Shown: positions 16,744 through 38,983, counted from the stretch's first letter. The stretch is DNA of 64,000 nt from Trypanosoma brucei (GCA_000002445.1 AL929603.2:96001-160000), one strand, 5' to 3'. The notes: generated by a model from the letters alone, not told the origin. Translations and numbers: made by a program.

Positions 16744-16924
16744 AGACTTCCTGATACTACTGTCAGAAACTACTGTTGCTGCGTGCTTCAGGCACTGGGT
16801 CAGTAATTCATAAATACAACAACGAGAATAAAATTAATCCCTTGTGGCTGCTAAGCGTGTAAGCAACTGAGAATAATAAACAGTATATTTTTGCCACACT
16901 TTATTGATTTCTTTATATATACAA

Positions 16925-16965
16925 AAAACCTCATTACATTTATCATTTCTTTTGTGCCCAAAGAC
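16925..16965 (+). promoter_or_regulatory. Polypyrimidine tract plus AG, a candidate trans-splice acceptor region upstream of the LRRP
   Basis: TCATTTCTTTTGTGCCCAAAG precedes the LRRP ORF. This is a kinetoplastid trans-splicing convention and is not verified. Confidence 0.25.
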
Positions 16966-16971
16966 TGCTGA

Positions 16972-21318: not shown

Positions 21319-23420
21319 TATTTGATCCATTGCTTCACTTTGTATAATTTAGCAACTTATTGCTGAGAATACGTTATTAAATTTAACAGCCAGTTTGAGT
21401 GGTTCGCTCACTGTAGGCACTATTACTCAAACAGATACCAGTAACAATTCATACGGATGATATTGTATGTTACACTATCTTAAATACGAGAAATACGAAG
21501 ATCTCATTACAGTCATGTAAGCGTTTAACAAATTAGTAAGTCATACCAATCATATATTGTGAAGAATAAAGAACAGTTAGGAAGGTGCGTGTGCGTGTAT
21601 GTGACAAGCTTTTTTCTCAATGGAAATTTTGATTTTAGTTGTAAGCGTAGTAATTATTGTATTATTCTCGTTCATATTACAACTATACCAAATGAACATA
21701 TCATTATATTGTATGCCATTCTAACTTTATGACTACACATCCACACACATATATATTGAATTATTATTACTATTTCTATCGTTCTTATTGTTATTACATG
21801 AAACACAACATTCACATTTAATTTTTACTCATAGCCACACCTGAAAAGTAAAAGCACTCAACATTCTGCAGTACTGTATACCTTTCAATGATATGAGGAG
21901 GTGAAGTTTATATACCATTAAAGTATAGTGAATATATTTCATTATTCTTATTATTATTTGCTTTACTGAAAGAAATGACAGAGTGACTTTACAATAAATT
22001 ATATCAGAGCAGCATCTTAACCACCAATTTGCTACACAGGAAGAGGATAATACAACACATCACGTGTCTCGTGATTCTTTTTTACACTTGCCACTGGTAT
22101 ATCTACATTCTCAAACAGTGCGATTGAATATTCTCGTTTCATTAAAATATTATATTATAACTTGTTGTATTTGTTTGGTTTTTTAATAACATAATTTATT
22201 TTATTACATTTCCTTTCAGAATTATTTGGGCCAAACTTTTGTGAAGATGTCATACAATCTGAATTCCCTTGCGCAGCAAAGGGTTGTGTACCGCCTTAAC
22301 CCATTAACATTTGTGCTACATGTGCATGGGAAAGTGTATTAAACATTTCACTGGTTTTGGGAAATATTATTTTCTTTCTTACAACATGATGCCTCAGAAG
22401 AACTGAAGGCGAGAGCAGATCCTTTCATTCATTTTATTTTCCTTTTCTCACCGTATCCGTATATGTTTATGACTTTCCAGAAAACACTGCTGGGGTAAAT
22501 TATGTATTTCTTCATATTTACTTTTTATTTGACAACAACAAGAAAGGGATTTCCTCCTCACACACTTAAATTAATTAGACACTGCTGTTAACTGATAAGT
22601 TACAGACAGCCGCACATTTAAGTTACACAAATCCACACCGATTCGAAATAGTAAAATATCAAATATTATGTATTTATTTGAGAAAAAAAAGAGACGAAAA
22701 GAAGCGCTGCATCTGAAGCAAGATGCATGTGAGTTCGAAGAACAACTGTCATTTGAATATCATATCCCCAAATTGTTTTGATTACATTATTAGCAGTAAA
22801 TGCTTACGGAACTTGGGAAGTGAATGACTACTGAAATTAGAAGCATGAGGACGCACCGCGATGGCACATGAAAGTAACATTGGTGGGATTTTTATATATT
22901 GGAAAGTGGAGTGGCTTTAAGGTGTTTTACATGATGTTTAGTTGGAGATTGAAATAATTCAAAAAGCAGTGAAAGACTGTTATGATACAGGAATCTTTTC
23001 GTTTACTAATTTCAAGCTCACTCCCGCGACGCACTATTTTCGGTTTGCATTGCAGGAGGTGGTATGATATATGCAACCGCTTATTTCTTATTTATTTATT
23101 TTTGCGAGTTTATATAAGTGTGGTTTGGTGGCGTGGAAAATTTTAGCATGTGGTTAATGTCTTTATGACAAGAAACTGCTCTGCTCGAGCGATGGTATTG
23201 GAAGGTTAAATATAAATTATATGTTTTATGAGTTAATCAAATGCTGAATGCTTCAACTGACTCACTCTTCAAACCAAAACACTTTCTCAGCTTTTCCACT
23301 CTCAGCTAAAAATGTAGTTCAGTTTCCAAACAGCACACCACATCTCATTCACCATCGGGTAAAGAGATATTTGTATGGGCAACACGAAAGTGGAGAAGTG
23401 CAGAAAGTAGAAATAAAGAA

Positions 23421-23435
23421 TATATATATATATAT
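23421..23435. repeat. (TA)n microsatellite (also 24191..24207; mirrored at about 42076..42097 and 41318..41335)
   Basis: Seen in the sequence. Confidence 0.9.
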
Positions 23436-26029
23436 CGAATTATGTTGGAACTGCAGGTATCATTCAACCTAAGAGTAAAAACACCCTTCCTTCTGTTGTG
23501 AGCCGCAACCATGCCGTGATGAAGTTACAAGTGGAAGGAGTTGACTCAAATCATTCATCACCTAATCTCTGTAATGTGAATATGTTTGTTGAGAGATATT
23601 CGTATGTTAATGAGAGACCATTATGCAGAGGGAAGAACAGCCGACGACTGCAACCTAAAACCCGTAATTTGCGGACTGTGATAAACTTTAATAGTTTCAT
23701 TTTATTATGTAAAGATGGCATCAGCAGATTATACTTGTAAGCTGTTTGAAGTCAAAACAACGATACACGGAAGGGAATGTACAAGTGGTGATTTAAATCG
23801 TATGTTTATGAGAAATTTGTAGTGTGAATCAACTGTTGAAATATGTTGTGCGACATTAACACCAGATTTTTTTTTTTCATATTATTCTTCTTTTCTTTTT
23901 TTTTTTGCTTGTCTGTCGAACAATCTGAGGTTTAGTTGATATATTCCTGAGTTTCATCACATGTGTTGCTGTTTATATAATACTAATCGTTACAAACTAA
24001 ATATCTGCAGTAAGTATATTAAAAGCATACGATTTGTCACCACCTCTTGTTTAATTTCTCTTTATTCAAACGGCACTTTCTTTTAATCTTGTAAATAATT
24101 TTTTTATCGTTGTTTCATTTGTTTGTACCCTTCATCCTCTGCGCACAGTGTTGTATTTATTTGCTTCTACACGCTCGCAAAAAAAAAAATATATATATAT
24201 ATATATCATTTTTAAACAAATCGCTTTTGTGACTGATGTTTGTTCGGTTTGCATCGTATTATAAGTGGAATGTAAGATTCGTTGATTAAACATTTCATGG
24301 CGCATCATTACCAATTTGTTTGCTATGAACTCACAATTAACCATGAGAAAGGTTTTTACGACTCATACTCCCTGCATAAGTGCAATGCACTGAAGGAATG
24401 TAATTTAATTAATTAATCTATTTATTTTTTATTACTATCATTTTTATTACCATTATTATTGTCAGTATTAATATTCAGGTTTTCATCCATCACTATTTTA
24501 TTATTTATATTTTCTTTCCAACATCTGTTTCAAGAAACATGGTCGATTGGAAATAATGTAAACATCAATGGTTAGAGAAACTTTGATTTGCCTTGAGCGT
24601 GCAGATGCGCACAGTTCAAAAGGTTTCAGAAAGGTGATGGGGAACTTTAACCATATTTTTTATTACTGAATTCTTTCTCTCAAATGTTTTTGTTCTTTTG
24701 TATTGCACTTACATTCAAAACCAATTGGGCAGCGCTTCGAAGACAGTCAAGTGGCGTATGGAAATATTTGCGTATTGGTGGTTCTTTAAATTGTGATGAT
24801 TACGTTCCTAACGGTGATGGAAAAAAATTAACATATGAATGTGTGTTCAATAATAATAATTATTATTAAATGCCAAGTTCCCTTACATTTTGTATCAAAT
24901 AGTGAGTCTTTTTTTTAATCTCATTTTTTTAAAATGCGTATCGAGGTTTAGGAGGCACAATGTTGCTTAAAACTCAACTCTCACGAAAATGACACAAATT
25001 AAGGGAAGCTTCTATCGCAGCCACCATTTCCATGTGTGCAACAGTAATCGAGTCATTGTAACAATATATTTTTTGCGCGTGTGAAGTGTGAAATCCTCAT
25101 GAGAACTCAAAATTTACTACAATAATACTCATTATGCAAGGTGCTTTGAGTGGGTAAGGCGGCGCAGACTCAAATATCCAAAACAATTTATTTTCCCATA
25201 TGGCGGAACGAACGGAAACTGTAGTGAAACACACACTGCAAAGCGAGAAAAGTATATCTCCTGGTGCCGACACTCTCCAACGATGTGAACACAAACTCTT
25301 CATTTACGAACAGGAGGCTTCAGTTTGTTTATTTGTTTGTTTGTTTTTGAATCCATTCCTCACACCAGCGTCCAACATTAAATACAGGGAATTCAGAAAC
25401 TTTATCATGACCATTATTGTTGTGTCTTGTAAGATGATGCATATTTTATGATAGGAACTTACTGGGCACCAGCAGCCAACAAAGAAATACGAAAGAATAC
25501 AACAGTGATAAACATATATTACCTTGAAGTTACATGTGTACATTTGCGCGGAATTAGCTCAGTGGTGTTTGCGAACTCAGAGAATGAGGAAAACCAACAG
25601 TCAGATGAAATGAATAAAATACCAAATGTCGTGCATTCCTTGGAGGCATGAAAATAGATTCAATAACGCTAAGGTGTGACAGCAATGAGGCATGCCTCTG
25701 CTTGTAAACATGCGTTAAAAAGAGGGGAAATGTCAGTGAATACCTGAGGCAGCGCCAAAACTATTTTTTTTAATGGCCACCATGCTGCAGTAGAGCACTG
25801 TGGAAATATTTTCATTGGATAGAAAAATGTGTGTGGAAAGCTTATTAAAATTATTTGAAATTTATAACTGTTCTATCTGAGTAACCATGTGCGTCCTTTA
25901 GTATAGGAATCCCTTTGCGATAAAGCTTTTGTATCCTTTAAAAGGAAACACTAAGAAGCCGAATTAGTTAGAAAAGTAAAGCAAATATTTTAATCAAGAA
26001 CAATACTCAACATTTTGCTTCAGGACACC

Positions 26030-26517
26030 AGACACTTATTCTGGGAGAAAAGCGTCTGAGGGAACGTGAAGCAAGAGGTGATAATGTTTTCAGTTTATAT
26101 GGCTCCGTATGCAATTCAAAGTGGAGTGACATTATAATGGACAATGGAACTCAAATGCTGGGCATGAAGTTTGTTGATGGAACGCGTGCTGATGATATAA
26201 TGTGGAAAGATGAAGAAGTTAATGTCGTCCCCAAAATTGAGGAAACTTTTGAACATAAGCCGGAACGCACGGGAAGGAGGTGAAGCAACGGTTCCAACAT
26301 CTTAAATGGAGTGGTCGTACTCACAGTTTAATATTTAAATTCACAATGACATTCTCATTCAGAGAAAGGACTGGAGACTGAAATGTTGTGGAAAGAAAGC
26401 TCTGCGCTTGGCCAGCTGAGGAAACTCGAATACTAAGACACGCACCAAATCCTTACATTGTGATTGGAAACTCCAGAATCAGTAAGTCACTGGCCATCGG
26501 CTCACTTCTCCTTCACA
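26030..26517 (+). pseudogene. RHS: RHS gene 5' portion (degenerate) upstream of the ingi insertion
   Basis: The translation reads ...LYGSVCNSKWSDIIMDNGTQMLGMKFVDGTRADDIMWKDEEVNVVPKIEETFEHKPERT.... It parallels the RHS at 60384 (LYESIYNAKLSHIIIDDGTQPLGMRLVDGMPNEGLMWKDEEVNVVPEIEETLEQKPERT). A P-loop remnant reads IVIGNSRISKSLAIGSLLLHTL. The frame is interrupted by stops. Confidence 0.75.
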
Positions 26518-27674
26518 CCCTGGCGATGCCGGCCACCTCAACGTGGTGCCAGGGTCCAGTACCCCGTATCATCGGGGGAAGCCAAGAGCCAGCAGAGTTC
26601 CTTTCATGGGGAACACTGCTGTGCTCCGGCTACGGCATCATACAGCACAGGGATCAGCAGCGTCTTGCTGGGACACCGTTTTTCATTTGTCGGTCCCTGG
26701 GCACGTGCCAGCGTGCCATCAGCAGTATCATCCGCACTAAGATGCTGCTGTCCGGTGATGTGGAAGAGAATCCCGGCCCGTCGTTGCGCGGGATGCAGTG
26801 GAACTGCGCCGGGCTATCTCAAGGAAAGAGATTAGCACTCCACAAAACCCTTGTTGATGAGCGGATCGCCTTTTGTCTGTTGAGCGAGACAAGGATGACG
26901 CCTGGAGAGGCGGCTTGCTTTAGCGTTGCTGGCTACCAACATCACGGAATAGCTCGTAACTGCAAAGGAGGTGGTGTATCAATACTAGTGAGGGAGGACC
27001 TACCAGTCGAGACCGGTATGGCCGTTGTTGGTCGCATTGAAAAAGTGCATGCAACAATTCACCTTGCACGTGGAACGGCGCTGACTGTCACGTCGGCATA
27101 CATCCCACCAGAACACACCTTCACGGCAACTGACCTAGATACGCTTCTGACGACTGACGGTGCCCAGCTCATCGGTGCAGACGCTAACGCACACGCGTTG
27201 GCATGGGATCGCGCGAGCCCGCCAAATACCAAGGGTGAAACCCTCACACAGTGGTGCATTGACAACCAGTTTCTGGTATGCAACACTGGTGAGTGCACCA
27301 GGTACGCGCGCCACTACGGGGAGTCCACCCCTGATGTGACACTGTCAAGGAATTGCACAGTGTACACGTGGACATCGCTGTATTCTCCCGATAGCGATCA
27401 CCATCACATATTTTTCGACGTTATCGTTGGAGACGACACAGGTGCACTGAGTTGCCCGCGGCTTCAAAAGCCCATGTACGCATGGCTAAAAGCTAACTGG
27501 AGGAATTTCCGTCTCAAGGTTGACGAGCTCTGCAGGAAAATTGGTAGAGAGAAGAATGTCAACACCCTGGAACAGAAATTGAGCTCCGCCATCCGCATTG
27601 GACACCTGAGCTCGCGAAACTCGATGAAGAGAGCGCTGGATGCGGACCCTCCCACCGAAGGGAAAAGTTGGTAG
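26388..27674 (+). CDS. Chimeric reading frame in which the RHS P-loop remnant is fused in frame to the ingi N-terminal APE-like endonuclease region
   Basis: The translation reads ...SLAIGSLLLHTL|AMPATSTWCQGPVP...QWNCAGLSQGKRLALHKTLVDERIAFCLLSETR.... The endonuclease part belongs to the element. The first 130 nt are RHS-derived. Confidence 0.7.
   Translation: MERKLCAWPAEETRILRHAPNPYIVIGNSRISKSLAIGSLLLHTLAMPATSTWCQGPVPRIIGGSQEPAEFLSWGTLLCSGYGIIQHRDQQRLAGTPFFICRSLGTCQRAISSIIRTKMLLSGDVEENPGPSLRGMQWNCAGLSQGKRLALHKTLVDERIAFCLLSETRMTPGEAACFSVAGYQHHGIARNCKGGGVSILVREDLPVETGMAVVGRIEKVHATIHLARGTALTVTSAYIPPEHTFTATDLDTLLTTDGAQLIGADANAHALAWDRASPPNTKGETLTQWCIDNQFLVCNTGECTRYARHYGESTPDVTLSRNCTVYTWTSLYSPDSDHHHIFFDVIVGDDTGALSCPRLQKPMYAWLKANWRNFRLKVDELCRKIGREKNVNTLEQKLSSAIRIGHLSSRNSMKRALDADPPTEGKSW
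26506..26517 (+). repeat. Target-site duplication TTCTCCTTCACA (5' copy)
   Basis: The identical 12-mer recurs at 31724..31735 immediately after the ingi poly(A). Confidence 0.85.
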
Positions 27675-29695
27675 CCACGCGTAAGCAGATCCTGGACCGT
27701 ACCCCAAAGAAGAGATGGAGCACGCTATGCTCCAGACTTGCGGTGTCAGACCGCTGCAGTTGGCACATTGTCAAGAAGGTATATGCGCCACGACCACTAA
27801 CCACACCGGCTGTACTTGTTGATAACGCGGCCATCACGGACTACTGTCAAGCTGAGAGGTTCAGTAAACTGTACTCGTCCCGCGCAAGAAGGCACCCCGA
27901 CTCACACCCACCGGCACCAATAAAGACGATAGCGAGTGAGTTCAGTCCCATCACGATGGCTGAACTACGGAGATCGATCAAACTGCTACCGAGTGGATCC
28001 GCAGCCGGACCTGATTGCTTATACAACGAGGCACTGCAACATCTCGGTAGAACAGCGCTGAATGTTGTTCTGAGGCTATTCAATGAGAGCCTACGAACGG
28101 GAGTCGTGCCGCCTGCATGGAAGACTGGTGTTATCATCCCCATCCTGAAGGCCGGAAAAAAGGCGGAGGACCTCGATTCTTACAGGCCTGTGACGCTCAC
28201 GAGCTGTCTCTGCAAAGTCATGGAGCGCATAATTGCCGCGAGACTTAGAGACACTGTTGAGTCCCAGCTGACGCCGCAGCAATCAGGCTTTCGCCCCGGA
28301 TGCTCAACGCTCGAACAACTCCTGCACGTCCGCGCTGCCCTCTGCCGTCCCACGCACCAATCTCGTACGGGTGCTGTATTCGTTGACTACGAGAAGGCAT
28401 TTGATACAGTAGACCACGACAAAATTGCGAGGGAAATGCACAGAATGAAGGTATCATCCCACATTGTGAAGTGGTGCGTATCATTTCTGAGTAACCGAAC
28501 TGGCAGAGTGAGATTCAAGGAGAAACTCTCCAGAAGCAGAACATTTGAGCGAGGAGTGCCACAAGGAACTGTCCTTGGCCCAATCATGTTCATTATTGTC
28601 ATGAACTCGTTGAGCCAACGCCTTGCAGAGGTGCCGTTACTGCAGCACGGATTCTTTGCAGACGACCTAACGCTACTTGCGAGGCACACAGAGAGGGATG
28701 CCATCAACCACACACTACAGTGCGGTCTAAACGTGGTGTTACAGTGGTCAAAAGAGTACTTCATGTCTGTCAACGTAGCGAAAACAAAGTGCACACTCTT
28801 CGGGTGTATAGAGCGCCACCCCCTTACGTTGCAACTGGACGGCGAAAGAATAGGAGCTGACAGGACACCGAAGCTTCTAGGAGTAACATTCCAGTGTCTG
28901 CAAGGGATGGCAACACATGCGGCCGAAACGAGACGCAAGATGGACTTCCGACTACTGCAGATAGCAGCCATCTCAGCTTCTACATGGGGGCCAAGACGAC
29001 AAGTACTGAGAACTTTTTATCTAGCACTCGTACAGGCACACACCATGTATGGCATTGAGGTATGGTACTGGGACGCTTCGGAACGAAGTCGCGACCTCCT
29101 TGCATCAGCACAACACAAAGCCAGTCGCATCATAGCCGGCATACCGCATGGGACGCGCAAAGAGGACTCTCTGCTGGAAGCAAACCTCCTGCCACTCAAG
29201 ACGGCCACTCTTGTGCGCAGCATGAAATTCATGCTGATGTGTGAGTCACGAGGCGGATGTTTGCGGCGCAGTGCTGAAGAAGTATACCACAGCAAACACC
29301 CAGTCAGAGTCTTACATTCCCGCATCATGCGGTCCTACCCCCACCTCCGCATTGAGCCACGCGAGCACCCACTAGAGACATCGACGCTCCGCCACAGCTG
29401 CCGACCGATATTTCACACGCAGATAAAGCCTGTGTGCGCTGATGACCCTGACGATGTCAAAAGGGAGGCTTCCGAAAAGTGGATTGAACGACATTTTGCA
29501 CGGAGGGGGAAGGAGCCACCGCGGCGAGAGCACTACGAATTGTGGACTGATGGATCCGTGTCCCTCGGTGAGAAGACCGGGGCAGCTGCCCTGCTCTATA
29601 GAAACAACACGCTGATTTGTGCACCAAAGACCGGAGCAGGGGAACTCTCATGCAGTTACAGAGCGGAATGCGTAGCATTAGAGATAGGACTGTAA
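27668..29695 (+). CDS. ingi reverse transcriptase / RNase H ORF fragment (675 aa)
   Basis: RT motifs are present (...YRPVTLTSCLCKVMERII..., FADD). An RNase H-like C-terminal end is present. The start is offset by -1 from the upstream ORF. Confidence 0.85.
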   Translation: MVATRKQILDRTPKKRWSTLCSRLAVSDRCSWHIVKKVYAPRPLTTPAVLVDNAAITDYCQAERFSKLYSSRARRHPDSHPPAPIKTIASEFSPITMAELRRSIKLLPSGSAAGPDCLYNEALQHLGRTALNVVLRLFNESLRTGVVPPAWKTGVIIPILKAGKKAEDLDSYRPVTLTSCLCKVMERIIAARLRDTVESQLTPQQSGFRPGCSTLEQLLHVRAALCRPTHQSRTGAVFVDYEKAFDTVDHDKIAREMHRMKVSSHIVKWCVSFLSNRTGRVRFKEKLSRSRTFERGVPQGTVLGPIMFIIVMNSLSQRLAEVPLLQHGFFADDLTLLARHTERDAINHTLQCGLNVVLQWSKEYFMSVNVAKTKCTLFGCIERHPLTLQLDGERIGADRTPKLLGVTFQCLQGMATHAAETRRKMDFRLLQIAAISASTWGPRRQVLRTFYLALVQAHTMYGIEVWYWDASERSRDLLASAQHKASRIIAGIPHGTRKEDSLLEANLLPLKTATLVRSMKFMLMCESRGGCLRRSAEEVYHSKHPVRVLHSRIMRSYPHLRIEPREHPLETSTLRHSCRPIFHTQIKPVCADDPDDVKREASEKWIERHFARRGKEPPRREHYELWTDGSVSLGEKTGAAALLYRNNTLICAPKTGAGELSCSYRAECVALEIGL

Positions 29696-29740
29696 CGGCT
29701 GCTGAAATGGCTTCCGGCTTACAGAAGCACACCGAGCAGG

Positions 29741-31084
29741 TTGTCCATCTTCTCTGACTCGCTGTCAATGTTAACAGCACTGCAGGCAGGTCCACTAGCC
29801 GTAACGGACCCAATTCTGAGACGACTATGGAGGCTTCTGCTTCAAGTTCAGAGAAGGAAGGTGCGTATCCTAATTCAATTTATGTTCGGTCATTGTGATA
29901 TGAAACGGAATGAGGTTTGTGATGAAATGGCTAAAAAGGCCGCAGATTTACCACAGTTGCGAGACACATGGATCCCCGACATCATTGCTTATGCGAAGCG
30001 AGTGCTTAGGTCGGAAGAAGTCCATGAGAACACTCATAGGTTTGGTATCACTGGCAACCACTTTTCAACAAAATATAAAGAAGAACTGACGAGGGAAGAA
30101 GAAACGGCACTGGCACGCTTTCGGGTTGGGTCTTCAAGACACTATGGATGGATGTTGCGAAAGATCAACCCGAGTGTGCCTCCACAGTGCCGATGGTGCA
30201 ACCCGCAACATGCAGCGATAGGGCCAACAATACAAAAGGCCCCAACTGTTGCGACACGCACTCTTCAGAGAACCTCCGAACCGACCAAATGTACGGAATG
30301 TGATGCCACATACCAATGCCGCTCGAGTGCTGTAACGCATATGGTAAACAAACATGGCTTTGTGCGAGCTGATGCCCTCCGGAGGATCAAATACGGCGAT
30401 GCAACACCCGCAGTGGATATCCCCCCGGAGCCCCCTCCAGTGGTGGCGATCGTTCCCCTACCATCGAGCACACGAGTCCCGATGAGACCGCAGGTGCTTC
30501 ATTGTACCATCTGTGCCTCCAAATTCGCAGTGCCAGGCCGACTATTACACCACCTTAGAACAATACATGGCATAGGCAGCGGTAGTTTCCGCGTGAAAAG
30601 GGGGCGAGAGAACGAAGACTCATTGCAAGGAGATGGTAGCGCTCCAGCAGCGCCAGCCTCTCAGGATACACGGAAGCTGCCGTTTCAATGTGACCTGTGC
30701 GAGGCGAGCTTCGGTACACGTTCTTCCCTGACACTACACAAAAAATTCAAACATAAAAGCATAGTGACGGAGGACGGTACCGTGGTGTTAGTGCAATTCC
30801 CTCGTAAGCGTGCCCGTGAGGGAAACGTTGACGTCCCGGGGAAGGGCGAGGTGCAGTGTGGTGTGTGTGCCAAAAAGTGCTCAGTTGCAGGGACTCCCTC
30901 ATCCGACACTGTAAGGCTTTCCACAAAGGTGAGGAAGTCGAGCTTAAATGCAGCAAAAGCACAAAATTGTGTGCCACTGATTCCCCCCGTACAAACACAT
31001 CCATGTTGGTGTGCCCGACATGCGGAAGGCAGTGTGCTAGCAAAACTGGCCTCACCCTACATCAAAAGAAGATGCACGGTATGA
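29741..31084 (+). CDS. ingi C-terminal ORF fragment with multiple C2H2 zinc fingers
   Basis: The fingers read CTECDATYQCRSSAVTHMVNKHG, CTICASKFAVPGRLLHHLRTIHG, CDLCEASFGTRSSLTLHKKFKHK and CPTCGRQCASKTGLTLHQKKMHG. The frame continues as 30856..31452 after a frameshift. Confidence 0.8.
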   Translation: MSIFSDSLSMLTALQAGPLAVTDPILRRLWRLLLQVQRRKVRILIQFMFGHCDMKRNEVCDEMAKKAADLPQLRDTWIPDIIAYAKRVLRSEEVHENTHRFGITGNHFSTKYKEELTREEETALARFRVGSSRHYGWMLRKINPSVPPQCRWCNPQHAAIGPTIQKAPTVATRTLQRTSEPTKCTECDATYQCRSSAVTHMVNKHGFVRADALRRIKYGDATPAVDIPPEPPPVVAIVPLPSSTRVPMRPQVLHCTICASKFAVPGRLLHHLRTIHGIGSGSFRVKRGRENEDSLQGDGSAPAAPASQDTRKLPFQCDLCEASFGTRSSLTLHKKFKHKSIVTEDGTVVLVQFPRKRAREGNVDVPGKGEVQCGVCAKKCSVAGTPSSDTVRLSTKVRKSSLNAAKAQNCVPLIPPVQTHPCWCARHAEGSVLAKLASPYIKRRCTV

Positions 31085-31723
31085 AGGTAGAGCGCGCTGT
31101 AACCAGCCAACGCGGCGACTGCGAAGAAACGTCGCTGCACTTGATGAGCTGTCCCGGTTTGAAGAAGTTACGTGTCAGGTTTGCGGTAGAAGGTGAGTGT
31201 GTGCGGGATGTATGCTTCTCCAAAAGGCTGGCGCAATTTCTCATTGCGGTTGAACGGAGCCGGCCGCAGGTGAAGTCCTCACCTAAGGTAACAGTCATAC
31301 AACCCACTCTTCCTTCTGCAACTTCCCCCCTTATTGCCGAGTGTGGAGCTAGCAGGAAAAGCACCGGACGCAGGAATAGTCCAGACACCCTCAGAGACAG
31401 AGGAGGTATGCAGTCAACAAGCAACAGAAACAGAAAGAGGGGGAGAGAATAATAAACGAATAACAAAAATCAAAACAAAAGGATTGCCAATTGACATCTT
31501 TTGGAGAGTCCAGGGTGGGAGGCTTCTCGCCCCATCTGCTGTATTCCGTTCATATGCGGAAATACAACAAAAATTATAGAGAGTGTGTTAGGATGAATGA
31601 AAAAGGGAGACTCTGCCACAGTCGCCAGACCGATAGCATTTCAGGGCTCTACGGTGATGGCTGATGGCCGCGCCAGTGGGGGGAAACTCCCACGAAGGCA
31701 CGAAGAAAATTCAAAAAAAAAAA

Positions 31724-31800
31724 TTCTCCTTCACAAACTAAAGCATGATGCCAGAGTATTGCCTGTTACCGCATATTTTATAGGAGGTCATGCATGCATA
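31724..31800 (+). pseudogene. RHS: TSD (3' copy) followed by RHS continuation after the ingi
   Basis: TTCTCCTTCACA is followed by LLHKLKHDARVLPVTAYFIGG. Intact RHS reads LYKLLHYDAEELPVVAYFRG at this point. Confidence 0.75.
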
Positions 31801-32410
31801 TATATATGTATATGTATATATGTCTGTGTTGTATCTTGGAACGTTGCGCCCATATGGCAAATGGATTGGAAGACTGCTGCTGCATAAATTCATCAACCTT
31901 GGTCGCATCTATCGTACAGGAGATTCCGAAACGTATGTGTGCACGCTGCACTTTGAATCCGCATTGAGGGTGGTAACTTTCCAGTCGCGCAGAGACGTTG
32001 CACGACAACATTGTGTGAGGAGAGTCACTCATATACAGATCAGTTTTGTCTTGTGTTTTGAAGGTGATGCCGCAAGTGCTTTCGATTTTCCCAGGGTATT
32101 ATTTCCTTTTATTGACATGATAGGGTCATTGCCCGCAACCGCGGAGTGGAAACAGGAAACGATGCAGGATGTCAGCGTGTTGAACCGCCTGAGCGATATT
32201 TTCCTGAACTTCAGTAAAGCACAGCGCCTTCCAAATATCCATGAGGGAACAATCAACTCTCCACACACCATGCAACTTTACGGGTTCCCACCCATTTTCC
32301 CACTATTTGATACCTTGTTTGTTGTGGATTGCGACACAACCACCGAAGTTGAAAATCAACGAAAAATAAACGGTGGTGATGTTGCAATTCCAAACTGCTG
32401 GATCACATGA
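31790..32410 (+). CDS. Conserved 206-aa ORF, 100% identical in both arms (mirror at 37784..38404 -); possibly a remnant of an RHS 3' region
   Basis: Similarity to the RHS C-terminal region is weak (TYVCTLHFESALRVV versus TYVCVAHSESIKKRI). The ORF begins inside the (TATATG)n tract, so a genuine start is doubtful. Confidence 0.25.
   Translation: MHAYIYVYVYMSVLYLGTLRPYGKWIGRLLLHKFINLGRIYRTGDSETYVCTLHFESALRVVTFQSRRDVARQHCVRRVTHIQISFVLCFEGDAASAFDFPRVLFPFIDMIGSLPATAEWKQETMQDVSVLNRLSDIFLNFSKAQRLPNIHEGTINSPHTMQLYGFPPIFPLFDTLFVVDCDTTTEVENQRKINGGDVAIPNCWIT
31795..31830. repeat. (TATATG/TATG)n microsatellite at the RHS remnant junction (mirror at about 38375..38410)
   Basis: catatatatatgtatatgtatatatgtctgtg seen in the sequence. 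Confidence 0.85.
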
Positions 32411-34248
32411 TAACAAAACAGGAACAGCCCTTAATATGCTCGAGAATCCTGTCCTTCTAACATGTGATGCGAATAGGGATATGTTTTTGGGAAATTTTAT
32501 GAATGAATTTGGGTGGGGAGTTATTTGTGCTCAGCATGTTGCCGTCAGAAAGATGAGACGCCAACAATTGTGCAACGATACAGCGGGCAAATGAAGTGAG
32601 GAAGATCGCAAATATGTTCATTTATTTTGGGCCAACAGTATGAAACATTACCTTGTGCAATTTAATGTTAATACCGTCGCTATGTTAGCTATTGAAAATA
32701 TTGCGGGGAGGGGAAGTAACCGACATGGATGTAAATCATGAAAGAGCGGCTGTGGGAAATCAATAAAAGAGAGGAAGGAGAAGAGTAAACGGGGAAAACA
32801 TCAACAAAAGAGTGTGGAAACAAATAATCACGGCAGGTGATGTCACGGTATAACTCTGTGTTAGGAGGGTTGTGGACTCTATCAAAATTAACCTCTCGGC
32901 AGTAAGCACAGTTAACAACGAGCGTATGATCCCTTTTTAAAATTTGGTTACTTTAATTCGTTTTTTTTTATTACTTAACGATGTTAACATTAGATACGAT
33001 ATGCATTTTTTGTAGAAGCACATATGTGTTAATGAAAACATTGCAACATTGTTTACATCAGATATTAATACTTAGCTGCCTAACCGTAATTTCCTACAGA
33101 GCGTGTCGTTTACGGTTTTCATTTCTACCAGATGGATGTCACATATTGTGTTTAATATTTTACACTGAGTGATGTGTCCGAAATATTTTTTTTTCTTAAT
33201 CGTCGACGCCCCTTTCACCTTTTCATGTATTCTCCTAATTTTTCTCTACCATTTGTTACTTAAGGTGCGCACAGATACGAATGTATGAAGGTTTCTGTGC
33301 AAGAAGCCGAGGTGTCCAGTTCACTATTTATTTGATGGAAAGTCATTATTTTGAGTGTGCGATTCGTTGTACATCCACTGGCTACCGGCACAGCGTATGT
33401 TATCACTTGCCCTATCTTTCATATGATTACTCTAAAATGATTAGAGTTCAGCGGTATGAAAAGTGTAATAATACCCGAGAAGTGCAGTTCCAACTGTTGA
33501 TGGGTAATATTTATGTTTGATTGTCAGGTGGTGATTTACTAACATGAAGTATGCAGTTTATTATGATAGGCTGAGAAGGAGGGGAATGATGATGCGTTGA
33601 AGGACGTGAGGTAACTGATAGTATTATTATTATTATTGTTTTTTTTTGTTAACTGATGTATTCCATAACATTGAGGATGCAGTGGGACTTAGGGGTGAAG
33701 CACTTTGGGAACTGTATTTGTGTTTGCATGGATGAGCTTGAGCCAATAGAACCCGCTGTCGCGTATCAACAAGAGTGGAAATTAGTGGAACAGTTTTTGT
33801 ATGTTTCTTTGTATTGTGGTGAGCTTTCGTTGATTTCCCTCTTAACTTTCGTTGTTTATTGATTTTTGTTATTTGTTGTTTCATTCATTTTGGATCGTCA
33901 GAAATGTGAGGGTGCAATGTGTTTGTTTTTGGTTTTTTTCACACCGCCCACAGTTGGGATTGGTGATGCATGAAATTCATTATTTTTATATTTGGCATAT
34001 GATAACAAGGCAAGGGAAATATTTATACAGCTGCCGTATTTTGGAATTGTTTTCCTTAATACCAAATAAGGTATAATACCGTATAACACAAACAATAGTG
34101 AATAAATATTATCTCGCTTTATTACTTTTGTTATTATATTAAACTATTCGCACACTGTTATTTTCCTCATCGGTTATTTTACTTCAGTTATTTATATTTT
34201 CAGAGAAGTAAAGGAAAGGGAAGTTAAATTAAGTTAATAATAAAATGT

Positions 34249-35074
34249 ATGCCGAGAGCCAACAATCCTGCAGCTCCACGTGGAAACGATGCAAATCAAC
34301 AAGTGGCAGGTAATATTGAAGCAGCCATGAGGAGACCACGGGATGAAAATGTACCGCCTCCTCCTCCTCCTGCTGCTGCTGCTGCTCAGCCTCCACAAAT
34401 ACGGCAGAGAACTGAAGAGAGGCCCAATTGGACAATGAATAGTAAGGTGAGGGATGTGCTGCTGGAAGATGTGCCGCTGCAACGGTATGAGGTTCTGCGT
34501 AAAATGACACTGCATGATTTATGGAGTGGCAGAAACGGAAAATGTGAGGATTCCCATGTTTGTTGAAAATCCGGGAGAATATATTACGAACGCAAGAATT
34601 CTACATGACATACAGAATCTCCACAAGTTCAGACAGTACAAAAAGATTTGTGAGCGGTTGCCTGAAGTAGAAGGAAATCTCCTCTCTACCTTAATGGGAA
34701 GGGAAATTTACTACCTCAGTCAGTGGGAGGAGAAGGGAAGAGGGGAAATAAGGGAATTTGTTGGTCCCGTGGCGAGGGGAAGGTTGGATGGAGCACTGGA
34801 GGTCGCCAAAGAAGCAAGGAAACGAGCTGCCCAACCAGCCTGTGGTGCTGTCGAACTTAAAGGAGTGTATGATTCTATATACAATGCGAAATGGAGTTAT
34901 GTGATGCCGGGTTATGATGAAGAGCCACTTGGAATGAAAGTGTTTAATGGAAAACCGCAGCGCATTTGGACCGAAGCGGAGGTGGATATAACTCCTGAAC
35001 CTGCGAATGTTGATGCAGAGATTAAGAAGGGATCCAATGGTTTAGAGATTTTTGTTCTCACTTCGGAGAAGGTG
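34249..35074 (+). pseudogene. RHS: RHS gene 5' portion (about 275 codons, one frameshift near 34560), truncated at the palindrome centre after ...LEIFVLTSEKV
   Basis: The translation reads MPRANNPAAPRGNDANQQVAGNIEAAMRRPRDENVPPPPPPAAAAAQPPQIRQRTEE...GRGEIREFVGPVARGRLDGALEVAKEARKRA...GVYDSIYNAKWSYVMPGYDEEPLGMKVFNGKPQRIWTEAEVDITPEPANVDA. The 5' flank at 34150..34248 matches the flank of the RHS at 3081..3150 on the other strand. Confidence 0.85.
34356..34386. repeat. (CCT)n(GCT)n trinucleotide repeat encoding the Pro/Ala run in the RHS N-terminus; its length is polymorphic between copies
   Basis: The runs are PPPPPPAAAAAQ here, PPAAAAAAQ in the mirror copy (about 35800) and PPPPAAAAAQ in the copy at 2052..3080. 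Confidence 0.85.
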
Positions 35075-35139
35075 ATTTGCGCCCCGTACCGCTATGTGAA
35101 GCAGGAGTTCGAGCTTTGAATAGTGTTACGCCCCCCGCC
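35075..35139. other. Non-palindromic central spacer of the inverted repeat (~65 bp)
   Basis: The left arm ends at ...CACTTCGGAGAAGGT (35074). The right arm starts at ACCTTCTCCGAAGTG (35140). The intervening GATTTGCGCCCCGTACCGCTATGTGAAGCAGGAGTTCGAGCTTTGAATAGTGTTACGCCCCCCGCCA is not self-complementary. Confidence 0.8.
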
Positions 35140-35944
35140 AACCTTCTCCGAAGTGAGAACAAAAATCTCCAAACCATTGGGTCTCTCCGGCACTCGTGCA
35201 TCAACATTCGCAGGTTCAGGAGTTATATCCACCTCCGCTTCGGTCCAAATGCGCTGCGGTTTTCCATTAAACACTTTCATTCCAAGTGGCTCTTCATCAT
35301 AACCCGGCATCACATAACTCCATTTCGCATTGTATATAGAATCATACACTCCTTTAAGTTCGACAGCACCACAGGCTGGTTGGGCAGCTCGTTTCCTTGC
35401 TTCTTTGGCGACCTCCAGTGCTCCATCCAACCTTCCCCTCGCCACGGGACCAACAAATTCCCTTATTTCCCCTCTTCCCTTCTCCTCCCACTGACTGAGG
35501 TAGTAAATTTCCCTTCCCATTAAGGTAGAGAGGAGATTTCCTTCTACTTCAGGCAACCGCTCACAAATCTTTTTGTACTGTCTGAACTTGTGGAGATTCT
35601 GTATGTCATGTAGAATTCTTGCGTTCGTAATATATTCTCCCGGATTTTCAACAAACATGGGAATCCTCACATTTTCCGTTTCTGCCACTCCATAAATCAT
35701 GCAGTGTCATTTTACGCAGAACCTCATACCGTTGCAGCGGCACATCCCTCGCCTTACTATTCATCGTCCAGTTGGGCCCCTCTTCAGTTCTCTGCCGTAT
35801 TTGTGGAGGCTGAGCAGCAGCAGCAGCAGCAGGAGGCGGTACATTTTCATCCCGTGGTCTCCTCATGGCTGCTTCAATATTACCTGCCACTTGTTGATTT
35901 GCATCGTTTCCACGTGGAGCTGCAGGATTGTTGGCTCTCGGCAT
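35140..35944 (-). pseudogene. RHS: Mirror copy of the truncated RHS 5' portion (tail-to-tail with 34249..35074)
   Basis: The ORFs 35092..35700 (-) and 35648..35944 (-) are near-identical to 34514..35119 and 34249..34566. The differences are one 15-bp indel, the (CCT/GCT)n length and a small indel near ...ANVDA(RVPERPNGLEIF). Confidence 0.85.
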
Positions 35945-38458
35945 ACATTTTATTATTAACTTAATTTAACTTCCCTTTCCTTTACTTCTCTGAAAATATA
36001 AATAACTGAAGTAAAATAACCGATGAGGAAAATAACAGTGTGCGAATAGTTTAATATAATAACAAAAGTAATAAAGCGAGATAATATTTATTCACTATTG
36101 TTTGTGTTATACGGTATTATACCTTATTTGGTATTAAGGAAAACAATTCCAAAATACGGCAGCTGTATAAATATTTCCCTTGCCTTGTTATCATATGCCA
36201 AATATAAAAATAATGAATTTCATGCATCACCAATCCCAACTGTGGGCGGTGTGAAAAAAACCAAAAACAAACACATTGCACCCTCACATTTCTGACGATC
36301 CAAAATGAATGAAACAACAAATAACAAAAATCAATAAACAACGAAAGTTAAGAGGGAAATCAACGAAAGCTCACCACAATACAAAGAAACATACAAAAAC
36401 TGTTCCACTAATTTCCACTCTTGTTGATACGCGACAGCGGGTTCTATTGGCTCAAGCTCATCCATGCAAACACAAATACAGTTCCCAAAGTGCTTCACCC
36501 CTAAGTCCCACTGCATCCTCAATGTTATGGAATACATCAGTTAACAAAAAAAAAACAATAATAATAATAATACTATCAGTTACCTCACGTCCTTCAACGC
36601 ATCATCATTCCCCTCCTTCTCAGCCTATCATAATAAACTGCATACTTCATGTTAGTAAATCACCACCTGACAATCAAACATAAATATTACCCATCAACAG
36701 TTGGAACTGCACTTCTCGGGTATTATTACACTTTTCATACCGCTGAACTCTAATCATTTTAGAGTAATCATATGAAAGATAGGGCAAGTGATAACATACG
36801 CTGTGCCGGTAGCCAGTGGATGTACAACGAATCGCACACTCAAAATAATGACTTTCCATCAAATAAATAGTGAACTGGACACCTCGGCTTCTTGCACAGA
36901 AACCTTCATACATTCGTATCTGTGCGCACCTTAAGTAACAAATGGTAGAGAAAAATTAGGAGAATACATGAAAAGGTGAAAGGGGCGTCGACGATTAAGA
37001 AAAAAAAATATTTCGGACACATCACTCAGTGTAAAATATTAAACACAATATGTGACATCCATCTGGTAGAAATGAAAACCGTAAACGACACGCTCTGTAG
37101 GAAATTACGGTTAGGCAGCTAAGTATTAATATCTGATGTAAACAATGTTGCAATGTTTTCATTAACACATATGTGCTTCTACAAAAAATGCATATCGTAT
37201 CTAATGTTAACATCGTTAAGTAATAAAAAAAAACGAATTAAAGTAACCAAATTTTAAAAAGGGATCATACGCTCGTTGTTAACTGTGCTTACTGCCGAGA
37301 GGTTAATTTTGATAGAGTCCACAACCCTCCTAACACAGAGTTATACCGTGACATCACCTGCCGTGATTATTTGTTTCCACACTCTTTTGTTGATGTTTTC
37401 CCCGTTTACTCTTCTCCTTCCTCTCTTTTATTGATTTCCCACAGCCGCTCTTTCATGATTTACATCCATGTCGGTTACTTCCCCTCCCCGCAATATTTTC
37501 AATAGCTAACATAGCGACGGTATTAACATTAAATTGCACAAGGTAATGTTTCATACTGTTGGCCCAAAATAAATGAACATATTTGCGATCTTCCTCACTT
37601 CATTTGCCCGCTGTATCGTTGCACAATTGTTGGCGTCTCATCTTTCTGACGGCAACATGCTGAGCACAAATAACTCCCCACCCAAATTCATTCATAAAAT
37701 TTCTCAAAAACATATCCCTATTCGCATCACATGTTAGAAGGACAGGATTCTCGAGCATATTAAGGGCTGTTCCTGTTTTGTTATCATGTGATCCAGCAGT
37801 TTGGAATTGCAACATCACCACCGTTTATTTTTCGTTGATTTTCAACTTCGGTGGTTGTGTCGCAATCCACAACAAACAAGGTATCAAATAGTGGGAAAAT
37901 GGGTGGGAACCCGTAAAGTTGCATGGTGTGTGGAGAGTTGATTGTTCCCTCATGGATATTTGGAAGGCGCTGTGCTTTACTGAAGTTCAGGAAAATATCG
38001 CTCAGGCGGTTCAACACGCTGACATCCTGCATCGTTTCCTGTTTCCACTCCGCGGTTGCGGGCAATGACCCTATCATGTCAATAAAAGGAAATAATACCC
38101 TGGGAAAATCGAAAGCACTTGCGGCATCACCTTCAAAACACAAGACAAAACTGATCTGTATATGAGTGACTCTCCTCACACAATGTTGTCGTGCAACGTC
38201 TCTGCGCGACTGGAAAGTTACCACCCTCAATGCGGATTCAAAGTGCAGCGTGCACACATACGTTTCGGAATCTCCTGTACGATAGATGCGACCAAGGTTG
38301 ATGAATTTATGCAGCAGCAGTCTTCCAATCCATTTGCCATATGGGCGCAACGTTCCAAGATACAACACAGACATATATACATATACATATATATATGCAT
38401 GCATGACCTCCTATAAAATATGCGGTAACAGGCAATACTCTGGCATCATGCTTTAGTT

Positions 38459-38470
38459 TGTGAAGGAGAA
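38459..38470 (-). repeat. TSD TGTGAAGGAGAA (reverse complement of TTCTCCTTCACA) flanking the RIME; second copy at 38972..38983
   Basis: Seen in the sequence. It is identical to the left-arm TSD. Confidence 0.85.
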
Positions 38471-38971
38471 TTTTTTTTGAATTTTCTTCGTGCCTTCGTG
38501 GGAGTTTCCCCCCACTGGCGCGGCCATCAGCCATCACCGTAGAGCCCTGAAATGCTATCGGTCTGGCGACTGTGGCAGAGTCTCCCTTTTTCATTCATCC
38601 TAACACACTCTCTATAATTTTTGTTGTATTTCCGCATATGAACGGAATACAGCAGATGGGGCGAGAAGCCTCCCACCCTGGACTCTCCCAAAGATGCCAA
38701 TTGGCAATCCTTTTTTTTTGGAGTTCCACATCACCGGACAGCAGCATCTTAGTGCGGATGATACTGCTGATGGCACGCTGGCACGTGCCCAGGGACCGAC
38801 AAATGAAAAACGGTGTCCCAGCAAGACGCTGCTGATCCCTGTACTGTATGATGCCGTAGCCGGAGCACAGCAGTGTTCCCCATGAAAGGAACGCTGCTGG
38901 CTCTTGGCTTCCCCCGATGATACGGGGTACTGGACCCTGGCACCACGTTGAGGTGGCCGGCATCGCCAGGG
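38471..38971 (-). mobile_element. RIME (ribosomal mobile element, 501 bp: ingi 5' half joined to ingi 3' half) at the position that is paralogous to the left-arm ingi
   Basis: The 5' half is CCCTGGCGATGCCGG...GATGTGGAA. It joins directly to the 3' half ...GGATTGCCAATTGGCATCTTTGGGAGAGTCCAGGGTGGGAGGCTTCTCGCC...A8. The ORF 38612..39025 reads across the junction as ...CCCPVMWN|SKKKGLPIGIFGRVQGGRLLAPSAVFRSYAEIQQKL. Confidence 0.9.
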
Positions 38972-38983
38972 TGTGAAGGAGAA

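What the first reader, a model, noticed from the sequence alone, without database searches (positions are those of the whole stretch)
26506..31735. Same insertion site and same 12-bp TSD, but an ingi (5.2 kb) in one arm and a RIME (0.5 kb) in the other
Both arms carry a retroelement at the identical RHS codon. Both are flanked by the identical TSD TTCTCCTTCACA, at 26506..26517 and 31724..31735 on the left and 38459..38470 and 38972..38983 on the right. So one insertion predated the duplication. Yet the left element is a full ingi and the right one is a precise RIME (5' half ...GATGTGGAA joined to the 3' half). The two are almost identical in the shared 250-bp ends. The 4.7 kb interior is not flanked by repeats. 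The difference therefore cannot come from simple homologous excision between direct repeats. It implies either precise conversion against ectopic RIME or ingi copies, or a precise internal deletion. Either way this is a rare paralogous-site snapshot of ingi/RIME interconversion.
Basis: partly seen in the sequence, partly recalled or inferred. Interest (0 to 1): 0.7.

Follow-up and report, generated by a model that had tools for sequence, protein, structure and literature searches.

The report
Ingi versus RIME at twin hot-spot sites
Two mirror-image copies of a broken trypanosome gene carry a long (ingi) and a short (RIME) retroelement at the same nucleotide; the short one is a true RIME-family copy whose tail matches the ingi opposite, so recombination, not deletion, explains the difference, at an already known insertion hot spot.

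Summary
The window is T. b. brucei TREU927 chromosome 1. TTCTCCTTCACA occurs exactly four times, flanking a defective 5,206-bp ingi (26518-31723, +) and a 501-bp RIME (38471-38971, -). Both sit at the same position of a short RHS relic in the two arms of a ~50-kb imperfect palindrome.

- The same site and TSD do not prove a single insertion. This is the known RHS hot spot, and a third ingi in the window sits at the same codon position of a different RHS.
- De novo deletion is rejected. The RIME has the family-wide junction (GTGGAA-CTCC-An-GGATTGCC) and RIME-type bases next to it, as in two unrelated T. b. gambiense RIMEs.
- The RIME is a mosaic. Its last 205 nt match the opposite ingi (0 differences; 8-27 in the 20 other pairs). 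The shared ends differ about 30-fold more than the flanks.
- The left ingi is old: T. equiperdum has it at the same site with the same rare A79 variant. Its interior is mosaic between the two strains.

Best reading: one arm was copied onto the other, then the core was repaired against an ectopic RIME (0.45). Main rival: independent hot-spot insertions with arm-to-arm homogenisation of the edges (0.30). Interest is modest.

The parts
4520..54711 (.). Imperfect palindrome. Left arm 4520-~35073, spacer ~35074-35140, right arm to 54711. Identity is mosaic: about 93% in the outer arms and near 100% around the elements.
   Evidence: Self-BLAST; per-250-bp difference map; centre sequence.
26388..26517 (+). 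5' part of the RHS-derived relic, left arm. It holds a degenerate P-loop (IGNSRISKS) and then ...GSLLLH, and reads in frame into the ingi.
   Evidence: Translations; BLASTP to the intact RHS, E=6e-12; Pfam RHSP 28.1 bits.
26506..26517 (+). Target-site duplication, upstream copy, left arm (TTCTCCTTCACA).
26518..31723 (+). Defective ingi, 5,206 bp. The 5' RIME-like half is 26518-26765, the interior is 26766-31470, the 3' RIME-like half is 31471-31712, and the poly(A) of 11 is 31713-31723. The reading frame is broken into at least 4 ORFs.
   Evidence: Pfam Exo_endo_phos_2 and RVT_1; collinear with the T. equiperdum ingi and sharing the rare A at 26596.
31724..31735 (+). Target-site duplication, downstream copy, left arm.
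38459..38470 (-). Target-site duplication, downstream copy, right arm.
38471..38971 (-). RIME, 501 bp. The 5' half is 38971-38724. The family-specific junction is CTC at 38723-38721, then C plus A9 at 38720-38711. The 3' half is 38710-38479 and the poly(A) of 8 is 38478-38471. It is a mosaic: RIME-type alleles within 32 nt of the junction, and the last 205 nt identical to the left ingi.
38972..38983 (-). Target-site duplication, upstream copy, right arm.
38984..39101 (-). 5' part of the RHS-derived relic, right arm. It is identical to the left copy except for a TG indel.
26064..26505 (+). Near-identical 5' flank block: 0 substitutions and one TG indel against the right arm.
31736..34356 (+). 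Near-identical 3' flank block: 1 substitution and one 1-nt indel against 35835-38458.
1..2051 (-). Third ingi, with its 3' part cut by the window edge. It is inserted at the same codon position of a different, diverged RHS. Its upstream target, TTCTGCTCCAAA, is at 2052-2063.
60946..60957 (+). Empty homologous hot-spot 12-mer (TTATCCTCTACA) in the intact RHS gene at 60384-62411.
   Evidence: Pfam RHSP 195 bits; codon alignment.

Best explanation
The two arms of an old palindrome, which is being homogenised patch by patch, on T. b. brucei TREU927 chromosome 1 each carry an occupied RHS retroelement hot spot. The left occupant is an old, defective ingi. The right occupant is a genuine RIME-family copy that is recombinant: it has a RIME-type 5' half, junction and first ~32 nt of the 3' half, but an outer 3' tail, TSDs and flanks identical to the ingi arm.

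Most likely route (inferred):
1. A block spanning flank, ingi and flank (about 26064-35017) was copied from the left arm onto the right arm by arm-to-arm gene conversion, or both arms inherited the same occupied site.
2. A break in or near the right-arm ingi was then repaired by homologous recombination against an ectopic RIME. This could be gap repair, gene conversion, or template switching within one repair event.
3. The tract ends fell inside the shared terminal ~250 bp: between positions 1-79 of the 5' half and between about positions 32-100 of the 3' half.
4. That swapped the 4.7-kb coding core for the RIME junction while keeping the TSDs and the outer tail.

Shown: the anatomy, the canonical junction, the mosaic, the excess divergence of the ends over the flanks, the age of the left ingi, and patchy conversion between arms. 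Inferred: the order of events, the direction of transfer, and the DSB-repair mechanism.
For: 1. Flanks versus ends. There is 1 substitution in ~3,075 nt of flank (26064-26505 plus 31736-34356) against 5 in the 498 nt of shared ends (Fisher p=2.7e-4). The element cores therefore have a different history from the flanks.
2. Canonical junction. GTGGAA-CTCC-A(n)-GGATTGCC and the alleles ttgGcatc and ctttGggag occur in 3 of 3 RIMEs (this one plus T. b. gambiense L002 and L003, which sit at unrelated sites with their own 12-bp TSDs) and in 0 of 4 ingis.
3. Shared tail. The left ingi and right RIME differ at 0 of 205 positions. All 20 other pairs among 7 copies differ at 8-27 of 205. Two variants are unique to this pair. 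In the inner 27 nt the RIME matches RIME L003 at 27 of 27 but differs from the left ingi at 2 of 27.
4. Age of the left ingi. T. equiperdum locus L008 is collinear with window 8049-31289 and has an ingi at the same site. That ingi carries the otherwise unseen A at element position 79 and is 800 of 800 identical over the first 800 nt. The RIME has the consensus C there.
5. Precedent at the same site. Beyond ~800-1800 nt the orthologous ingis diverge to paralogue level (3-4%), a conversion mosaic.
6. Arm-to-arm conversion. Three-way site patterns switch between L=T≠R and L=R≠T in patches.
7. One block. The near-identical stretch abuts the element on both sides. This is most simply explained by one tract that spanned the element.
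Against:
- The comparison set for tails is small (5 external copies) and comes from T. b. gambiense and T. equiperdum, not TREU927. A young TREU927 subfamily in which RIMEs and ingis share this tail would weaken the identity-by-descent argument.
- Poly(A) lengths differ (11 versus 8), which needs later slippage. Two other small indels do occur in the flanks.
- The same final pattern arises from two independent insertions plus two arm-to-arm tracts that stop at the heterology.
- The polarity of the flank conversions is only weakly resolved (3 L=R≠T sites in 454 nt).
Confidence: 0.45

Rival explanations
1. Two independent retrotranspositions, an ingi into the left arm and a RIME into the right arm, hit the same nucleotide of the RHS hot spot. 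Later, short-patch arm-to-arm gene conversion homogenised the flanks, the TSDs and the outer edges of the elements. The tracts stopped before the ingi/RIME heterology.
For: - The hot spot is reused at nucleotide precision. A third ingi sits at the same codon position in a diverged RHS, with target TTCTGCTCCAAA. A T. b. gambiense paralogue carries an old element at GSLLLH|.
- The literature reports a 12-bp TSD, an endonuclease recognition motif and the RHS hot spot (PMC3820030, PMC7563717).
- Patchy arm-to-arm conversion is demonstrated in the 5' flank.
- The differences cluster toward the heterology. The 3' differences lie 6, 24 and 32 nt from the junction.
- Different poly(A) lengths are natural for separate insertions.
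Against: - It needs two separate, very recent conversion tracts that each abut and enter the element from opposite sides. A single tract spanning the element would have made both arms the same type.
- If the poly(A) was converted along with the tail, slippage is still needed.
- No empty right-arm site has been observed.
Confidence: 0.3
2. Re-insertion followed by collapse. Both arms inherited the ingi. A RIME then inserted into the regenerated upstream TSD target of the right arm, giving a tandem RIME-TSD-ingi. Recombination between the two 3' halves deleted the ingi and left a RIME with the ingi's tail.
For: - The TSD restores the 12-nt target on both sides of an element, so the hot spot remains available.
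- The predicted product matches the observed mosaic: an entirely RIME 5' half, a RIME junction and proximal 3' half, and an ingi distal tail with the downstream TSD.
Against: - It needs two events where one conversion suffices.
- No tandem intermediate is seen here or in the fetched loci.
- The endonuclease motif upstream of the TSD would have to work with the same geometry, which is untested.
Confidence: 0.08
3. Two independent insertions with no later conversion of the element edges. The identical tails would simply reflect a shared, recently active source subfamily.
For: - Poly(A) lengths differ, 11 versus 8.
- The 5' halves are consensus apart from one private change each.
- The literature says some RIMEs are >99% identical to their consensus (PMC2323293).
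Against: - Tails differ at 0 of 205 positions and share two variants unseen in 5 other copies, while family tails differ by 4-13%.
- The RIME-diagnostic bases stop 32 nt into the 3' half.
- The left ingi is old (shared with T. equiperdum). A young RIME would have to match an old copy's tail exactly.
Confidence: 0.07
4. De novo precise internal deletion of a right-arm ingi copy.
For: Same TSDs and same outer tail.
Against: - The junction contains CT(C), which is absent from the ingi at either breakpoint.
- The A-run is uninterrupted (A9, against AAAACAAAA in the ingi).
- Two adjacent bases are RIME-type.
- All of these characters are shared with unrelated RIMEs.
- There is no usable microhomology.
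Confidence: 0.01
5. Assembly or haplotype-merging artefact in a repeated, palindromic region of the reference.
For: Palindromes and retroelements are hard to assemble. Chromosome 1 homologues differ in size (PMC1868937).
Against: - The arms differ at hundreds of positions and carry arm-specific indels, so they are not a collapsed duplicate.
- The left arm with its ingi is independently present in the T. equiperdum assembly.
- The two annotated LRRP genes match distinct RefSeq proteins exactly.
Confidence: 0.04

Closest known systems
RHS (retrotransposon hot spot) pseudogenes of T. brucei with RIME and/or ingi at one fixed position (Bringaud et al. 2002, Eukaryot Cell 1:137; content known to me from memory and through PMC7563717 and PMC6393297, because the paper itself is not held)
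   Same: - Insertion lies a few codons downstream of the P-loop, in frame.
- The TSD is 12 bp.
- Both ingi and RIME occur at the site.
- The site sits in a chromosome 1 cluster with LRRP genes.
- Recombination around the elements has been invoked to explain chimeric pseudogenes.
   Different: - Here the RHS is only a ~45-codon relic.
- The two occupied sites are paralogous arms of one palindrome with near-identical flanks.
- That lets the ingi/RIME difference be attributed to recombination with tract ends inside the shared ends.
The ingi/RIME autonomous and non-autonomous retroposon pair (Hasan 1984; Kimmel 1987; reviewed in PMC2323293 and PMC3820030)
   Same: - RIME equals the first ~250 plus the last ~250 bp of ingi.
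- RIME has a poly(A) tail and a 12-bp TSD.
- RIME is mobilised in trans and propagates as its own family with one common junction.
   Different: Textbook RIME copies arise by retrotransposition. This copy carries a tail identical to a neighbouring ingi, so at least part of it was acquired by DNA recombination.
Ectopic gene conversion and DSB gap repair between dispersed repeats (for example Alu or L1 conversion in primates, and template-directed internal loss during P-element gap repair); general knowledge
   Same: - A longer copy is replaced by a shorter homologous template, or the reverse.
- Tract ends lie in shared terminal homology.
- TSDs are preserved.
   Different: It has not been demonstrated experimentally here. 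The donor copy is unidentified.
Arm-to-arm gene conversion in large palindromes (for example primate Y-chromosome ampliconic palindromes); general knowledge
   Same: - Inverted arms are separated by a short spacer.
- Patches of near-identity sit within older divergence.
- Three-way site patterns show post-split homogenisation.
   Different: - The identity is a much more mosaic pattern (0 to >10% per 250 bp).
- The arms carry large asymmetric insertions: 4.7 kb of ingi core and a 6.3-kb adenylate-cyclase pseudogene segment.

Membership tests
ingi (Tbingi non-LTR retroposon) | About 5.2 kb, with RIME-like ~250-bp halves at both ends and the conserved 5' signature. | tested here: met
   5,206 bp. 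The 5' 248 nt and 3' ~250 nt align to RIMEs and to other ingis.
ingi (Tbingi non-LTR retroposon) | Encodes an AP-endonuclease and a reverse transcriptase. | tested here: met
   Pfam Exo_endo_phos_2 (E=6.6e-13) and RVT_1 (E=2e-45).
ingi (Tbingi non-LTR retroposon) | A single uninterrupted ~1,657-aa ORF, which marks a potentially autonomous copy. | tested here: not met
   The frame is broken into ORFs 26388-27674, 27668-29695, 29741-31084 and 30856-31452. There is a 49-nt gap relative to the T. equiperdum copy. This is therefore a defective member.
ingi (Tbingi non-LTR retroposon) | A 3' poly(A) tail and a 12-bp target-site duplication. | tested here: met
   A11 at 31713-31723, with TTCTCCTTCACA on both sides. 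The 12-bp TSD for Tbingi/TbRIME is stated in PMC3820030.
RIME (non-autonomous partner of ingi) | About 0.5 kb, made of the ingi 5' ~250 bp plus the ingi 3' ~250 bp. | tested here: met
   501 bp. The 5' part matches at 246 of 248 and the 3' part at 247 of 250.
RIME (non-autonomous partner of ingi) | The family-wide junction sequence shared by independent copies. | tested here: met
   GTGGAA-CTCC-A(n)-GGATTGCC is also present in T. b. gambiense RIMEs L002 and L003 at unrelated loci, and in peptides P0001 and P0002.
RIME (non-autonomous partner of ingi) | Poly(A) tail and 12-bp TSD. | tested here: met
   A8 at 38478-38471; TSDs at 38459-38470 and 38972-38983.
RIME (non-autonomous partner of ingi) | Arose at this locus by retrotransposition of a RIME RNA. 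| not testable with these tools
   The mosaic tail shows that at least part of the copy shares descent with the ingi arm. Whether the core arrived by TPRT or by DNA repair cannot be decided from this sequence.
RHS (retrotransposon hot spot) gene family | RHSP P-loop domain (Pfam PF07999). | tested here: met
   The reconstructed empty site hits RHSP at 28.1 bits (cut-off 25), covering profile positions 1-44 only. It is 40% identical to the intact RHS at 60384-62411, E=6e-12.
RHS (retrotransposon hot spot) gene family | An intact coding gene with N-terminal, P-loop and variable C-terminal regions. | tested here: not met
   There are many stops upstream. The homology ends ~25 codons after the site in TA/TG-rich sequence. 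It is a relic or pseudogene fragment.
RHS (retrotransposon hot spot) gene family | Retroelement inserted at the fixed hot-spot position just downstream of the P-loop. | tested here: met
   The same codon position (after the first base of Lys following GS[LF][LI]L[HYQ]) is used in both arms and in the third ingi. It is empty in the intact RHS. The hot spot is described in PMC7563717.
Palindrome with arm-to-arm gene conversion | Inverted arms whose identity shows patches younger than the duplication, by comparison with an outgroup copy. | tested here: met
   The outer arms show L=T≠R. The 23.5-25 kb and 26064-26517 stretches show L=R≠T.

The most novel reading that the evidence does not exclude
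An ingi was switched to a RIME in situ by homologous repair against an ectopic RIME, keeping the original TSDs and the outer tail. If that is general, RIME and ingi copy numbers and 'insertion' catalogues in T. brucei are shaped partly by DNA-level type switching rather than by retrotransposition alone. TSD-flanked elements would then not reliably record what was originally inserted.
Probability: 0.4. Interest if true: 0.4.

Novelty: new member of a known kind. Interest (0 to 1): 0.3.

Why it matters
It gives a clean natural example, with internal controls (near-identical flanks, a third hot-spot insertion, and an orthologue in T. equiperdum). It shows that retroelements at the T. brucei RHS hot spot are reshaped by gene conversion with tract ends inside the shared RIME-like termini.

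There are three practical consequences:
- Same-site, same-TSD elements cannot be used naively to date insertions relative to duplications.
- Counting RIME and ingi 'insertions' may overestimate retrotransposition.
- Subtelomere-proximal RHS/LRRP palindromes are homogenised patch by patch.

It does not reveal a new kind of element or mechanism.

Tried and rejected
- Exact-protein look-ups of window ORFs (the 206-aa flank ORF and both LRRPs) found nothing on record, and neither did P0013. The strain was identified instead by BLASTP identity to cluster members.
- A homologue search with the ingi C-terminal ORF, meant to harvest many ingi 3' ends, returned only two T. theileri proteins. The tail comparison therefore rests on 5 external copies.
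- The primary papers (Bringaud 2002, by PMC id and by DOI; Hall 2003) are not held. The supplements of PMC2323293 contain no RIME alignment. Literature searches found no report of ingi/RIME type switching at paralogous sites.
- Repeat-mediated excision is rejected. Only a 7-nt AGAGAAT is shared near the breakpoints and it gives the wrong junction. The CTCCAAAA at ingi position 4701 is a coincidence.
- De novo deletion is rejected on the junction characters.
- The T. b. gambiense locus L001 turned out to be a paralogue, not the orthologue. Its LRRP is 84-90% identical and it holds an old element fragment.
- The right-arm orthologue in T. equiperdum could not be fetched because the look-up cap (12 of 12) was reached. 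L008 also stops 434 nt before the ingi 3' end.

Full report
**1. The observation**

The 12-mer TTCTCCTTCACA occurs exactly four times in the window, at 26506 and 31724 on the plus strand and at 38459 and 38972 on the minus strand. None is expected from shuffles.

On the left it brackets a 5,206-bp element (26518-31723) ending in A11. On the right it brackets a 501-bp element (38471-38971, minus strand) ending in A8.

The long element encodes an AP-endonuclease and a reverse transcriptase (Pfam). Its frame is broken into at least four ORFs, so it is a defective ingi.

The short element is the ingi 5' 248 nt, then CTC, then the ingi 3' ~250 nt. That makes it a RIME. The shared ends differ by 5 substitutions in 498 nt plus the tail length.

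**2. Where this is**

The two 1,448-aa LRR proteins of the window are 100% identical to XP_846398.1 and XP_846402.1 of T. b. brucei TREU927, on the 1.06-Mb chromosome 1 record.

The elements lie in the two arms of a ~50-kb imperfect palindrome (4520-54711). It has a ~65-nt spacer near 35074-35140.

The 'RHS' at the insertion site is only a relic:
- The reconstructed empty site hits Pfam RHSP at 28.1 bits over profile positions 1-44.
- It aligns to the intact RHS at 60384-62411 (40% identity, E=6e-12).
- It is full of stops upstream and runs into TA/TG-rich sequence ~25 codons downstream.

The insertion point is after the first base of the Lys codon that follows GSLLLH.

**3. Same site and same TSD do not establish one insertion**

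ingi and RIME make 12-bp TSDs and insert after a motif recognised by their endonuclease (PMC3820030). The RHS family is defined by a fixed hot spot just downstream of the P-loop (PMC7563717, PMC6393297). From memory, Bringaud et al. 2002 reported RIME and/or ingi at exactly the same relative position in many RHS copies; that paper is not held.

The window itself shows independent reuse of the site:
- A third ingi (1-2051, minus strand) sits at the identical codon position of a different RHS. Its flank is only loosely similar and its target is TTCTGCTCCAAA.
- The intact RHS has the homologous 12-mer TTATCCTCTACA empty, at 60946-60957.
- A T. b. gambiense paralogue (L001) carries an old element fragment at GSLLLH|.

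With identical target sequences in the two arms, independent insertions would give identical TSDs.

**4. The arms are old and homogenised in patches**

Differences per 250 bp between the arms range from 0 to more than 30.

T. equiperdum OVI locus L008 is collinear with window 8049-31289. Three-way site patterns give the following:
- L=T≠R dominates from 16 to 23.5 kb. The duplication is therefore older than the split of these lineages.
- L=R≠T dominates from 23.5 to 25 kb and in the 454 nt next to the element. This points to later arm-to-arm conversion.

Around the elements the flanks are nearly identical:
- 26064-26505 has no substitution.
- 31736-34356 has one substitution.

**5. The element cores do not share the flanks' history**

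Five substitutions in the 498 nt of shared ends, against one in ~3,075 nt of flank, is a ~30-fold excess (Fisher p=2.7e-4).

The two 5' differences are private, one to each copy:
- A at element position 79 is seen only in the left ingi and in its T. equiperdum orthologue.
- T at position 129 is seen only in the RIME.

**6. De novo deletion is rejected**

Two RIMEs at unrelated T. b. gambiense loci (L002 and L003, each with its own 12-bp TSD) have the same junction, GTGGA(A/C)-CTCC-A(n)-G(G/A)ATTGCC. They also share the alleles ttgGcatc and ctttGggag.

All four ingi 3' ends examined instead have aatCAAAACAAAA, ttgAcatc and ctt(t/c)Tggag. Peptides P0001 and P0002 show the same GDV(E/D)-LQK junction.

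Near the ingi breakpoints the longest shared word is 7 nt. It is offset and would give a different junction.

**7. The RIME is a mosaic**

| Region compared | Right RIME vs left ingi | Comparison |
|---|---|---|
| Last 205 nt before the poly(A) | 0 differences | All 20 other pairs among seven copies differ at 8-27 positions |
| First 27 nt after the A-run | 2 differences | Right RIME vs RIME L003: 0 differences |

The right RIME and left ingi also share two tail variants seen in none of the other five copies.

So the right element has a RIME-type core joined to a tail, TSD and flank that are identical by descent with the ingi arm.

**8. Conversion is seen at this same site in another comparison**

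The left ingi and its T. equiperdum orthologue have 0 mismatches in the first 800 nt. Beyond about 1.8-3 kb they differ by 3-4%, which is as much as unrelated copies differ.

Beyond 800 nt the left ingi is at least as close to the third ingi of the window as to its own orthologue.

**9. Mechanism**

Best explanation (0.45):
- A block containing flank, ingi and flank was present in both arms, either by left-to-right arm conversion or by shared inheritance.
- The right-arm core was then replaced by homologous repair against an ectopic RIME.
- The tract ends fell inside the shared termini. This explains all five substitutions in one event, the canonical junction and the retained tail.

Main rival (0.30):
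- An ingi and a RIME inserted independently at the hot spot.
- Two arm-to-arm tracts then homogenised the flanks and the element edges up to the heterology.
- I rank this lower because both flanks are near-identical right up to the element, which a single spanning tract explains more simply.
- The data cannot exclude it.

Minor rivals:
- Re-insertion into the regenerated TSD followed by collapse (0.08).
- Independent insertions from one subfamily with no conversion (0.07).
- Assembly artefact (0.04).
- De novo deletion (0.01).

**10. Limits**

- The tail comparison uses only five external copies, all from other subspecies.
- The T. equiperdum TSD lacks one T, which may be an assembly error.
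- The primary RHS, ingi-distribution and chromosome I papers could not be read.

**11. Verdict**

This is a real and correctly described feature at a well-known hot spot in a long-published reference chromosome.

Its 'single insertion' premise is not established, and its deletion alternative is refuted.

It is a good worked example of recombination reshaping retroelements, not a new kind of system.

Noticed in passing
window 4520-54711 (centre ~35074-35140): A ~50-kb imperfect palindrome with mosaic arm identity, from 0 to more than 30 differences per 250 bp. No chromosome 1 inverted repeat appears among the seven long inverted repeats listed as siRNA sources in PMC3447711 Table 3.
   Followed up: partly
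window 9879-16152 (right arm joins at 49364-49380): A 6.3-kb segment present only in the left arm. ORFs at 12816-14958 hit the adenylate-cyclase periplasmic-binding and catalytic domains (PF25495, PF25493, PF00211), so this is a fragmented receptor-type adenylate cyclase pseudogene. It is also present in T. equiperdum L008.
   Followed up: partly
window 1-2063 (minus strand): A third ingi, cut by the window edge, is inserted at the same codon position of a different RHS with target TTCTGCTCCAAA. It is 99.15% identical to the left ingi over the first 2 kb.
   Followed up: yes
L008 18494-23309 versus window 26518-31289: The T. equiperdum orthologue of the left ingi carries an open ORF of at least 1,656 aa, with endonuclease, RT and RNase H domains. 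The TREU927 copy is broken, including a 49-nt gap. The pair is identical for 800 nt and then diverges to paralogue level, which indicates interior gene conversion in one lineage.
   Followed up: yes
window 26751-26780 and 38715-38740: The RIME junction cuts through the 2A-like peptide motif of ingi. GDVEENPGP becomes GDVE|LQKK, so RIME read-through ORFs lose the motif.
   Followed up: no
window 16972-21318 (+) and 44214-48560 (-): The two LRRP paralogues are both intact, both exactly 1,448 aa, and 91% identical. Their differences concentrate at 19.5-21.7 kb, while neighbouring stretches are almost identical. The pattern looks like patchy conversion plus possible diversification of part of the LRR region.
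   Followed up: no
L001 10001-10345 (T. b. gambiense DAL972, FN554972.1): A paralogous unit of an LRRP plus an RHS relic. An old ingi/RIME 5' fragment (87-89% identical) sits at the same GSLLLH| position. This suggests that this relic lineage has been hit, or copied with its occupant, repeatedly.
   Followed up: partly
window 34357-34467 and 25636 / 39855-39893: There are small islands of divergence inside otherwise identical arm sequence. One island holds 6-nt and 15-nt indels plus 5 substitutions. The other is a 39-nt indel at the boundary between two identity blocks.
   Followed up: no
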